A stretch of DNA of 64,000 nucleotides from a virus (lineage: Duplodnaviria; Caudoviricetes). Location of the stretch: positions 1 to 64,000 of the IMG/VR virus record IMGVR_UViG_3300035208_001807. One strand, 5' to 3'. Below, in pieces: positions 55,776 through 56,465 of this stretch. A program made the position numbers and the translations under genes. Numbering within the stretch: position 1 is the first letter of the stretch; the number at the start of each line of letters is the position of its first letter. The notes beneath the pieces were generated by a model. The model had not been told where the DNA came from. It did not search any database and saw only the letters and a program-made list of their open reading frames with translations.

Positions 55776-55807
55776 GGAGAGATGGCCGAGTGGTTTAAGG
55801 CGGCGGT
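55776..55807 (+). pseudogene. 5' half of interrupted tRNA-Ser
   Basis: GGAGAGA-TG-GCCGAGTGGTTTAAGGC-G-GCGGT; pairs with 56414..56465. Confidence 0.85.
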
Positions 55808-55812
55808 AGGGC

Positions 55813-55841
55813 TTTACTTTTACTATAAACCATGCTATGAT
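55813..55841 (+). promoter_or_regulatory. Promoter of HNH cassette
   Basis: TTTACT-N17-TATGAT with extended TG. Confidence 0.6.
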
Positions 55842-55858
55842 ATCTATAGAGGTATCAT

Positions 55859-56320
55859 ATGCGAATACCAAATACTACTTGTTTAGGCTGTAGTAAATCA
55901 CTCTATCAGAGACCAAGCCAGAAAGCCTTAGGAAGGAATGTCTATTGTGATTTATGCTTTCCTACTATAGGAATGTCTCTACGCGGTGAGAGAGCTGCAG
56001 TTGCTCGTAACAGAATCTACGCAACTGCTTATATAGATAGATGGAAAGCTGGTAAAGAATCTGGGATGCGAGGTCAGACCGCAATTTCAGCGTATATTCG
56101 TAAGTATCTATTTGCTAAGTATGATAATAAGTGTTGTCGATGTAGCTGGAAAGAGAAGAATAAGACAACTGGTAAAATTCCTTTAGAGGTCAATCATAAA
56201 GATGGCAACCATAGGAATAACAAAGAAGGCAACCTTGAACTCTTGTGTCCTAATTGCCATAGTTTAACTAGTAGTTTTAGATCTCTTAATAAGGGATCTG
56301 GAAGGCCAAGAAAGTTCTAA
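55859..56320 (+). CDS. HNH endonuclease
   Basis: CCRC..LEVNHKDGNHRNNKEGNLELLCPNCHS; AT-rich. Confidence 0.88.
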   Translation: MRIPNTTCLGCSKSLYQRPSQKALGRNVYCDLCFPTIGMSLRGERAAVARNRIYATAYIDRWKAGKESGMRGQTAISAYIRKYLFAKYDNKCCRCSWKEKNKTTGKIPLEVNHKDGNHRNNKEGNLELLCPNCHSLTSSFRSLNKGSGRPRKF

Positions 56321-56323
56321 CTC

Positions 56324-56413
56324 GGAAGGGTGGCAGAGTGGCCTAATGCACCTGACTTGAAATCAGGAGGGCCCGTAAGGGCTCCGTGGGTTCAAATCCC
56401 ACTCCTTCCTCCA
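56324..56413 (+). tRNA. tRNA-Ser(TGA)
   Basis: Full cloverleaf, CCTGA-CTTGAAA-TCAGG, long variable arm, CCA. Confidence 0.9.
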
Positions 56414-56465
56414 AACCGTTGATCCCGCGAGGGGTCCGGGGGTTCGAATCCCTCTCTCTCCGCCA
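56414..56465 (+). pseudogene. 3' half of interrupted tRNA-Ser
   Basis: ACCGT, long variable arm, GGGGG-TTCGAAT-CCCTC, TCTCTCC-GCCA. Confidence 0.85.

What the first reader, a model, noticed from the sequence alone, without database searches (positions are those of the whole stretch)
55776..56465. HNH cassette inserted into a tRNA-Ser anticodon loop carries its own replacement tRNA-Ser
Seen: a tRNA 5' half (GGAGAGA...GCGGT), then a promoter, an AT-rich HNH gene and a complete, sequence-divergent tRNA-Ser(TGA), then immediately the matching 3' half (ACCGT...TCTCTCC-GCCA). The acceptor and anticodon stems of the two halves pair, and the anticodon is deleted. The insert ends in CCA and shows no group I intron core. 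Inference: a free-standing homing element that destroys its tRNA target and restores function with a cleavage-resistant tRNA, instead of splicing.
Basis: partly seen in the sequence, partly recalled or inferred. Interest (0 to 1): 0.75.

Follow-up and report, generated by a model that had tools for sequence, protein, structure and literature searches.

The report
Nuclease cassette splits and replaces tRNA-Ser
A selfish DNA-cutting-enzyme gene that travels with its own serine tRNA gene sits inside this phage's older serine tRNA gene and has broken it; four more cassettes of the same design lie in the same genome, so it looks like a natural "cut and replace" mobile element rather than an intron.

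Summary
Positions 55776-55807 and 56415-56465 are the two halves of a tRNA-Ser gene. Putting back only a 7-nt CTTGAAA loop gives a perfect 90-nt tRNA-Ser(UGA). Between the halves lies a 607-bp AT-rich insert holding a promoter, a 153-aa HNH endonuclease and a complete, divergent tRNA-Ser(UGA). No group I intron core is present, although the same scan detects one in a related phage contig.

The same genome holds four more such cassettes, for Trp, Asn, Gln and Met. Each splits a tRNA gene of the same identity as the tRNA it carries. I found the design again in other phage contigs (Thr, Ala). A homologous HNH sits in a true group I intron in the anticodon loop of a phage tRNA-Ser(UGA).

Best reading: a free-standing HNH homing cassette that destroys its tRNA target and supplies a substitute. 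Cleavage, target choice, resistance of the substitute and mobility are inferred, not shown. No close relative with an unbroken gene was found for this phage.

This scan had already noted the design in this genome and, by its own index, in at least 40 other genomes. I found no paper describing it. I class it as a new variant of free-standing homing endonucleases of phage tRNA clusters (SegB, T5 F-Tfl).

The parts
55776..55807 (+). 5' half of the resident (older) tRNA-Ser(UGA) gene: acceptor 5' strand, D arm, 5' strand of the anticodon stem (tRNA positions 1-31)
   Evidence: Read directly. 32/32 identical to the intact tRNA-Ser(UGA) of L006. Completes a tRNA with the 3' half.
55808..56414 (+). 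Inserted cassette (607 bp) in place of the anticodon loop
   Evidence: GC 0.409 against genome ORF mean 0.482, sd 0.031. No group I intron core at E<=10.
55813..55841 (+). Sigma-70-type promoter of the cassette, TTTACT-17-TATGAT, with TG at 55833-55834 (extended -10)
   Evidence: Consensus scan, 9/12 matches. The same layout heads the Met cassette (TTTACT-17-TATAAT) and the Gln cassette (TTGACG-17-TAAGAT). Function is inferred.
55848..55852 (+). Shine-Dalgarno AGAGG, 6 nt before the ATG
   Evidence: Read directly.
55859..56320 (+). HNH (His-Me finger) endonuclease gene, 153 aa
   Evidence: PHROG HNH families at E 1.8e-14. Pfam HNH_3 and HNH below their cut-offs. Invariant C92 C95 H113 G116 N125 C130 C133 and near-invariant H134 across 18 homologs. 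Model pLDDT 83.9; best PDB matches are all HNH nucleases but weak.
56324..56413 (+). Complete replacement tRNA-Ser(UGA), 90 nt with encoded CCA and U73, starting 3 nt after the HNH stop codon
   Evidence: ARAGORN. Rfam tRNA 58.6 bits. Cloverleaf. Only 66-71% identical to the split tRNA.
56415..56465 (+). 3' half of the resident tRNA-Ser(UGA) gene: 3' strand of the anticodon stem, long variable arm, T arm, acceptor 3' strand, G73, CCA
   Evidence: Read directly. The T arm and acceptor stand alone, outside any called tRNA, and pair with 55776. Antisense hit to a plastid trnS-derived Rfam model.
63808..64000 (+). Start of a second cassette of the same design, running over the window's end to genome 64351. 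It holds the 5' part of tRNA-Trp(CCA) with its loop CTCCAAA, an extended -10 promoter, and a family II HNH gene from 63884. The intact tRNA-Trp (64237-64310) and the 3' remnant (64324-64351) lie beyond the window.
46756..46783 (+). Orphan tRNA 3' end (T arm, acceptor strand, ACCA) 15 nt after tRNA-Met 46673-46740. No HNH gene and no 5' half nearby. Possibly a decayed scar of the same process.

Best explanation
The locus is a phage tRNA-Ser(UGA) gene whose anticodon loop has been replaced by a compact, compositionally foreign mobile cassette. The cassette holds its own promoter, an HNH endonuclease gene and a complete but divergent tRNA-Ser(UGA) gene.

Proposed working (inferred):
1. During mixed infection the HNH makes a break in or next to the anticodon-loop region of cassette-free tRNA-Ser(UGA) genes of related phages.
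2. The break is repaired from the cassette-bearing allele. The two tRNA halves and the DNA beyond them serve as homology arms, so the cassette is copied in.
3. The occupied allele can no longer be cut, because the site is disrupted.
4. The cost of killing the tRNA is cancelled by the cassette's own tRNA-Ser. Its anticodon stem (CCTGA/TCAGG) differs from that of the target (GCGGT/ACCGT).
5. The first insertion was probably an illegitimate end-joining event, since 4-7 loop nucleotides are lost.

The two halves are dead remnants. HNH and tRNA are probably co-transcribed. Removal of the tRNA from the transcript would cut the HNH message at or before its stop codon and so keep nuclease levels low.
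For: Shown here:
- Anatomy and completeness of the halves.
- No group I core, with a positive control.
- HNH identity and intact catalytic and zinc residues.
- Foreign composition of all five HNH genes: GC 0.37-0.43 against 0.482 +/- 0.031.
- Four more cassettes in the same genome, each inside a tRNA of the same identity: Trp 63808-64351, Asn 65161-65730, Gln 65896-66612, Met 70860-71474.
- An HNH gene is the only ORF in all five. They fall into two HNH subfamilies.
- The cassettes differ in gene order and orientation, but the break always lies in the anticodon arm.
- Three identities are certain from retained anticodons or class II shape plus nearest relatives (Ser, Trp, Met). By my own rough estimate of about 1/20 per tRNA, that is about 1e-4 by chance.

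Other phage contigs:
- L084 has half, HNH, tRNA-Thr, half. L034 has half, tRNA-Ala, HNH, half, with both anticodon-stem strands kept. L021 has the same flank as L034 but lacks the 5' half.
- 83 of 97 loci with HNH homologs contain tRNA genes, and 69 have one close by.
- A homolog (53% identity over the catalytic part) is encoded in a genuine group I intron between U34 and G35 of a phage tRNA-Ser(UGA). Its anticodon arm shares CGGT...ACCG with the split tRNA here.

Compactness:
- The HNH stop codon lies 3 nt before the tRNA in the Ser cassette, and inside the tRNA in the Trp and Met cassettes.

Established knowledge:
- Free-standing homing endonucleases of phage tRNA clusters cut tRNA genes and spread with neighbouring tRNA genes (SegB: PMC2330249, PMC13096335).
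Against: - No cleavage, target or mobility data exist.
- No close relative of this phage was found, so there is no empty-site allele. Distant relatives have no tRNA at this position.
- The closest full-length homologs of the Ser HNH sit next to Phe or Thr tRNAs, not Ser. Specificity is therefore either fast-evolving or loose. The match of cassette tRNA to target could then come from selection rather than from nuclease specificity.
- Orphan T arms are also frequent far from HNH genes in phage tRNA arrays: 0.25 against 0.38 per kb, only 1.5-fold. One orphan in this window has no HNH.
- Resistance of the embedded tRNA gene is inferred only from its different stem sequence.
Confidence: 0.65

Rival explanations
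1. Degenerate group I intron. The ancestor was an HNH-bearing group I intron in the tRNA-Ser anticodon loop, as in L037. It lost its ribozyme core, and a spare tRNA was captured later to compensate.
For: A homologous HNH lies in a real group I intron at U34/G35 of a phage tRNA-Ser(UGA). The insertion site here is the same loop.
Against: - No trace of a core at E<=10.
- The exon ends are not intact: 4-7 loop nucleotides are missing.
- The cassette has its own promoter and a full tRNA abutting the ORF.
- Four other cassettes of the same design, in two HNH subfamilies and three gene orders, would each need the same unlikely history.
Confidence: 0.1
2. Scar of general tRNA-array turnover. Illegitimate or short-homology recombination between tRNA genes inserted a foreign segment, and the HNH gene is a passenger that did not cause the insertion.
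For: Orphan tRNA pieces are common in phage tRNA arrays even away from HNH genes. An orphan 3' end in this window has no HNH. In L042/L043 a tRNA-Pro is interrupted by a tRNA-like piece without an HNH.
Against: In all five inserts of this genome an HNH gene is the only ORF. All five lie in the anticodon arm of a tRNA of the same identity. Boundaries are tight, from promoter to tRNA end. Homologs are strongly tied to tRNA genes.
Confidence: 0.15
3. Functional split or spliced tRNA. The halves are joined or paired at the RNA level, so the interrupted gene still yields a working tRNA-Ser.
For: The halves are pristine and their stems pair perfectly.
Against: The anticodon itself is absent from both halves. 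There is no ribozyme core. The Trp and Met remnants lack the 3' strand of the anticodon stem.
Confidence: 0.03
4. Assembly artefact or chimera of two phage variants.
For: The record is a metagenome-assembled, incomplete virus contig.
Against: There are five independent instances with different sequences in one contig, and the same design appears in unrelated contigs from other samples. Each junction is unique sequence.
Confidence: 0.02

Closest known systems
Phage T4/T6 SegB, a free-standing GIY-YIG homing endonuclease of the tRNA gene cluster (PMC2330249; PMC13096335)
   Same: A nuclease gene lives among phage tRNA genes, cuts tRNA genes of related phages and is inherited together with neighbouring tRNA genes. 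Processing of the shared transcript is thought to limit its expression.
   Different: SegB is GIY-YIG, not HNH. It lies between intact tRNA genes and cuts at the T arm or 3' end. It does not sit inside a broken copy of its target, and the tRNAs it carries along are not described as a substitute for a destroyed one.
Phage T5 F-TflI/II/IV HNH endonucleases of the tRNA region (Akulenko et al. 2004, known to me only through citations in PMC2330249 and PMC5714182)
   Same: HNH enzymes encoded within a phage tRNA cluster. Homologs of the Ser-cassette HNH occur in the tRNA regions of T5-like phages, for example Klebsiella phage AmPh_EK80.
   Different: They are not reported as inserted into a split tRNA of matching identity. 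I did not test direct homology to the F-Tfl proteins themselves.
Group I introns with homing endonuclease genes in tRNA anticodon loops (cyanobacterial tRNA-Leu and tRNA-fMet from general knowledge; here L037)
   Same: Same target site (anticodon loop) and a homologous HNH. The host gene's function is preserved despite the insertion.
   Different: Function is preserved by RNA splicing there, and by a spare gene copy here. The exons stay intact there, whereas loop nucleotides are lost here.
Homing-endonuclease insertions that split protein genes (Aeh1 mobE in nrdA, from my own knowledge; 'fractured genes' with split inteins, PMC2677866)
   Same: A free-standing endonuclease gene interrupts its host gene without an intron, and function is rescued another way.
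   Different: There the two gene products reassemble. Here the pieces are dead and a replacement gene is carried in.
Integrase-driven elements that insert into tRNA genes and carry a copy of the tRNA's 3' part (general knowledge)
   Same: The element targets a tRNA gene and carries the sequence that keeps a working tRNA.
   Different: That is site-specific recombination with an integrase, only a partial duplicate is carried, and the original tRNA is rebuilt. Here there is no integrase, a whole independent tRNA gene is carried, and both halves of the old gene remain.
Synthetic 'cleave and rescue' or 'home and rescue' gene drives (my own knowledge, not checked in the library)
   Same: The logic matches: a nuclease destroys a needed gene and is linked to a cut-resistant rescue copy.
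   Different: Those are engineered Cas9 systems in animals. This is a natural phage element with a protein-guided nuclease.

Membership tests
HNH / His-Me finger endonucleases | Catalytic His, conserved Asn and terminal His/Asn of the beta-beta-alpha-metal motif | tested here: met
   H113, N125 and H134 are invariant or nearly so in 18 homologs. PHROG HNH families match at E 1.8e-14. Pfam HNH and HNH_3 score only below their cut-offs.
HNH / His-Me finger endonucleases | Two CxxC pairs that bind structural zinc | tested here: met
   C92, C95, C130 and C133 are invariant.
HNH / His-Me finger endonucleases | Beta-beta-alpha fold | tested here: inconclusive
   The model has pLDDT 83.9, with strands 110-113 and 126-129 and helix 131-134. 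The best PDB matches are all HNH nucleases (McrA, Cap5, Cas9 HNH, T4 endo VII), but E is no better than 4.6e-3.
Free-standing homing endonuclease gene | Site-specific cleavage of the endonuclease-free allele near the insertion point | not testable with these tools
   Needs enzyme assays. Only the architecture and an intron-encoded homolog at the same site speak for it.
Free-standing homing endonuclease gene | Presence/absence polymorphism among close relatives (empty site) | tested here: inconclusive
   No close relative was found in the phage, IMG/VR or metagenome collections.
Free-standing homing endonuclease gene | Not embedded in an intron or intein; own expression signals; atypical composition | tested here: met
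   No intron core. Promoter and Shine-Dalgarno present. GC 0.385 against 0.482 +/- 0.031.
Group I intron | Conserved catalytic core (Rfam RF00028) | tested here: not met
   No hit at E<=10 in 55600-56600, nor at E<=1 in the 19-kb tRNA region. Control L037 scores 49.2 bits, E 2e-11.
Group I intron | Intact exons that give a complete RNA when joined | tested here: not met
   Joining 55807 to 56415 leaves no anticodon loop. Seven nucleotides must be added to obtain a tRNA.
tRNA (embedded gene 56324-56413) | Cloverleaf that scores above the Rfam gathering score, with class II variable arm and UGA anticodon | tested here: met
   58.6 bits against 29. ARAGORN cloverleaf. Charging and expression were not tested.
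tRNA (split gene 55776-55807 + 56415-56465) as a working gene | Anticodon loop present | tested here: not met
   The loop is absent.

The most novel reading that the evidence does not exclude
These cassettes form a widespread natural class of 'cut and replace' gene drives that govern turnover of phage tRNA repertoires. A conserved HNH catalytic module is joined to a variable N-terminal DNA-binding part that is retargeted to the anticodon arm of one tRNA gene after another. Each cassette carries a recoded substitute tRNA. The incoming tRNAs, with altered anticodon stems, may also be favoured because they escape host anticodon nucleases.
Probability: 0.4. Interest if true: 0.85.

Novelty: new variant of a known kind. 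Interest (0 to 1): 0.7.

Why it matters
Mobile endonuclease genes normally avoid harming their host gene in one of two ways. Either they sit in a self-splicing intron or intein, or they sit beside the gene. This element would show a third way: destroy the target and bring a substitute. That is the logic of engineered cleave-and-rescue gene drives.

It would also explain several features of phage tRNA arrays: duplicate isoacceptors, tRNA fragments and HNH genes. It suggests the arrays are remodelled by selfish elements rather than only by codon-usage selection.

The five pristine target/cassette pairs in one genome, and homologs in cultured phages (Enterococcus phage iF6, T5-like phages), make the idea directly testable.

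Tried and rejected
Searches for a close relative with an unbroken gene all failed:
- Megablast of 12 kb against GenBank phages.
- Protein-seeded search of IMG/VR with the downstream 340-aa gene.
- Exact searches for the Ser 3' half in IMG/VR and in metagenomes.
- Exact search for the Trp 5' half in metagenomes.
- Exact search for the L034 5' half in IMG/VR, which found only its own contig.

Distant relatives found through the 340-aa protein (L110, L113; 55-61% identity) keep the downstream gene module but have no tRNA at this position.

Other steps that led nowhere or were weak:
- Enrichment of orphan T arms near HNH genes was only 1.5-fold. I do not use it as support.
- The homing endonuclease next to tRNA-Ser in Karamvirus phages (EnC15) is unrelated to this HNH.
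- Short direct repeats at cassette junctions (TAATG in Met, AATTA(A)GTA in Trp) are too short to interpret. The Ser junctions have none.
- The Asn junctions could not be resolved.
- The profile search of solved structures gave only weak HNH hits.

Full report
**Where the window lies.** The window is the first 64 kb of a 149,407-bp linear virus record, estimated 68% complete. ARAGORN finds 28 tRNA genes in the whole record, most of them in an array at 62-74 kb.

**The observation.**
- A 32-nt tRNA 5' part ends with the 5' strand of the anticodon stem (GCGGT).
- A 51-nt 3' part begins with the complementary strand (ACCGT). It continues through a long variable arm, a canonical T arm and the acceptor strand to G-CCA.
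- The acceptor halves pair 7/7.
- The 5' part is identical over all 32 nt to an intact tRNA-Ser(UGA) of another IMG/VR contig (L006). The 24-nt core searched recurs in six further contigs, five of them tRNA-Ser genes. Four of the intact relatives have the loop CTTGAAA.
- Adding only those seven bases gives a 90-nt tRNA-Ser(tga) by ARAGORN.

So the older gene was a tRNA-Ser(UGA), and the insert stands in place of its anticodon loop. Depending on whether the A's at 56413-56414 are loop remains, 4 to 7 nucleotides are missing.

**The insert (55808-56414, 607 bp).**
- It has a TTTACT-17-TATGAT promoter-like site with a TGn extension and an AGAGG ribosome-binding site.
- It has a 153-aa ORF.
- Three bases after the stop codon comes a complete tRNA-Ser(UGA), at 58.6 bits in Rfam.
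- The ORF matches Pfam HNH models only below their cut-offs, but PHROG HNH families at E 1.8e-14.
- In an alignment with 17 homologs, the two CxxC pairs, the catalytic His, the Asn and the CPNCH motif are all kept.
- A predicted model (pLDDT 83.9) finds only HNH nucleases as its best PDB neighbours, though weakly.
- The ORF has GC 0.385, about three standard deviations below the genome's long ORFs.
- The carried tRNA is only 66-71% identical to the split one. It differs in eight of ten anticodon-stem positions and has U73 instead of G73.

**It is not an intron.** A permissive Rfam scan of the locus (E<=10) gives no group I hit, and neither does a scan of the 19-kb tRNA array. The test can see such cores. 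In contig L037 a homolog of this HNH lies in an insert in a tRNA-Ser(UGA) gene, and there the scan finds Intron_gpI at 49.2 bits, E 2e-11. The splice junctions are readable between U34 and G35.

**It is not alone.** Running ARAGORN with introns allowed, together with a scan for T arm plus acceptor ends outside called tRNAs, found four more cases in the same genome.
- Trp, 63808-64351. The 5' part keeps the CCA anticodon loop.
- Asn, 65161-65730. The HNH gene is on the other strand.
- Gln, 65896-66612. The order is promoter, tRNA, HNH.
- Met/CAT, 70860-71474.

Each insert has an HNH gene as its only ORF and a complete tRNA of the same identity as the broken one.
- All five ORFs hit PHROG HNH families at E 1e-14 to 1e-32.
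- They fall into two subfamilies: Ser with Gln, and Trp with Met and Asn.
- All five are AT-rich relative to the genome.
- The acceptor strands of all five broken genes still pair fully.
- In the Ser and Gln cassettes both strands of the anticodon stem survive and only loop bases are gone.
- In the Trp and Met cassettes the break lies just 3' of the loop.
- The cassettes are very compact. The HNH stop codon lies inside the carried tRNA in Trp and Met; in Met it is the TAA of the anticodon loop.

**Other phages.** IMG/VR holds many homologs of both HNH subfamilies.
- 83 of 97 loci contain tRNA genes, and 69 have one within a few hundred bases.
- L084 repeats the design for Thr.
- L034 repeats it for Ala, with both anticodon-stem strands retained.
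- L021 has the same left flank as L034, but its 5' half is gone, as expected for a decaying remnant.
- Several other loci keep a 3' remnant after the HNH gene.

Orphan tRNA ends are also common elsewhere in these arrays, so their enrichment near HNH genes is only 1.5-fold.

Homologs also occur in cultured phages. Enterococcus phage iF6 has an unannotated copy abutting tRNA-Thr. T5-like phages have homologs in their tRNA regions.

**What could not be shown.** This phage has no close relative in any collection searched. Distant relatives keep the downstream genes but have no tRNA here. Cleavage, target site, resistance of the carried tRNA and mobility are therefore inferences.

The nearest full-length homologs of the Ser HNH sit by Phe and Thr tRNAs. 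The match between cassette tRNA and target may therefore owe as much to selection as to nuclease specificity, since only insertions that replace what they destroy would be tolerated.

**Literature.** Full-text searches found the known association of homing endonucleases with phage tRNA clusters.
- SegB cuts tRNA genes and spreads or amplifies neighbouring tRNAs (PMC2330249, PMC13096335).
- The T5 F-Tfl enzymes are known through citation.
- HNH genes occur in mycobacteriophage tRNA arrays (PMC6409571).

No description of a cassette inside a split tRNA of matching identity with a substitute tRNA turned up. The library is incomplete, so this is not proof of novelty.

**Earlier notes of this scan.** Other readers noted the five cassettes of this genome. 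The scan's index lists similar findings in at least 40 other genomes, some with reported empty-site relatives. I found the other cassettes independently before reading those notes. I treat the notes on other genomes as untested leads.

**Verdict.** The homing-with-rescue mechanism is the best-supported explanation, at about 0.65. The main rivals are a passenger HNH in general array turnover (0.15) and a degenerate intron (0.1).

Noticed in passing
genome 121181-121254 (outside the window): tRNA with anticodon CUA (amber suppressor type) in a phage that otherwise reads with the standard code in the ORFs examined.
   Followed up: no
genome 72216-72303, 72606-72695, 72900-72982, 121097-121178, 72134-72209: Several oddly shaped tRNA-like genes. 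One has an 8-nt anticodon loop and sits directly behind a third type of HNH gene (72316-72606). One is 88 nt with a T arm and ACCA but no normal anticodon arm. One has a class I body with anticodon UAA.
   Followed up: partly
genome 65572-65659; L045/L046 3445-3527: tRNA-Asn genes with a long variable arm (83-88 nt), unusual for Asn.
   Followed up: no
L042/L043 4628-4790 versus L044 4626-4701: A tRNA-Pro(UGG) is intact in one contig. In two related contigs its anticodon loop is interrupted by an insert of about 84 nt that looks like a tRNA and has no HNH gene. This is a filled/empty pair for a tRNA-in-tRNA insertion.
   Followed up: partly
L037 2308-3064: Phage tRNA-Ser(UGA) gene with an HNH-encoding group I intron between U34 and G35 (RF00028 49.2 bits, just under the gathering score of 50).
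   Followed up: yes
L013 332-615: Permuted tmRNA (RF04321, 100.6 bits) in a phage contig next to its tRNA array.
   Followed up: no
L117 (Enterococcus phage iF6, MT909815 41124-41501): Unannotated HNH gene, 46% identical to the Ser-cassette HNH, between tRNA-Phe and tRNA-Thr. Its stop codon lies inside the tRNA-Thr gene. A cultured phage in which the element could be tested.
   Followed up: partly
window 46756-46783: Orphan tRNA 3' end (T arm, acceptor strand, ACCA) 15 nt after tRNA-Met 46673-46740, without an HNH gene or a 5' half.
   Followed up: partly
window 57164-58186: PspA/IM30-like 340-aa protein. Its homologs (43-61% identical) include many from Saprospiraceae metagenome bins. With its neighbours it forms a gene module conserved in distant phage relatives (L110, L113).
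   Followed up: partly
genome 78100-78500 (L003 17100-17500): Cluster of tRNA-like and Y-RNA-like elements, with a weak YrlA hit of 26.5 bits at L003 17172-17235.
   Followed up: no
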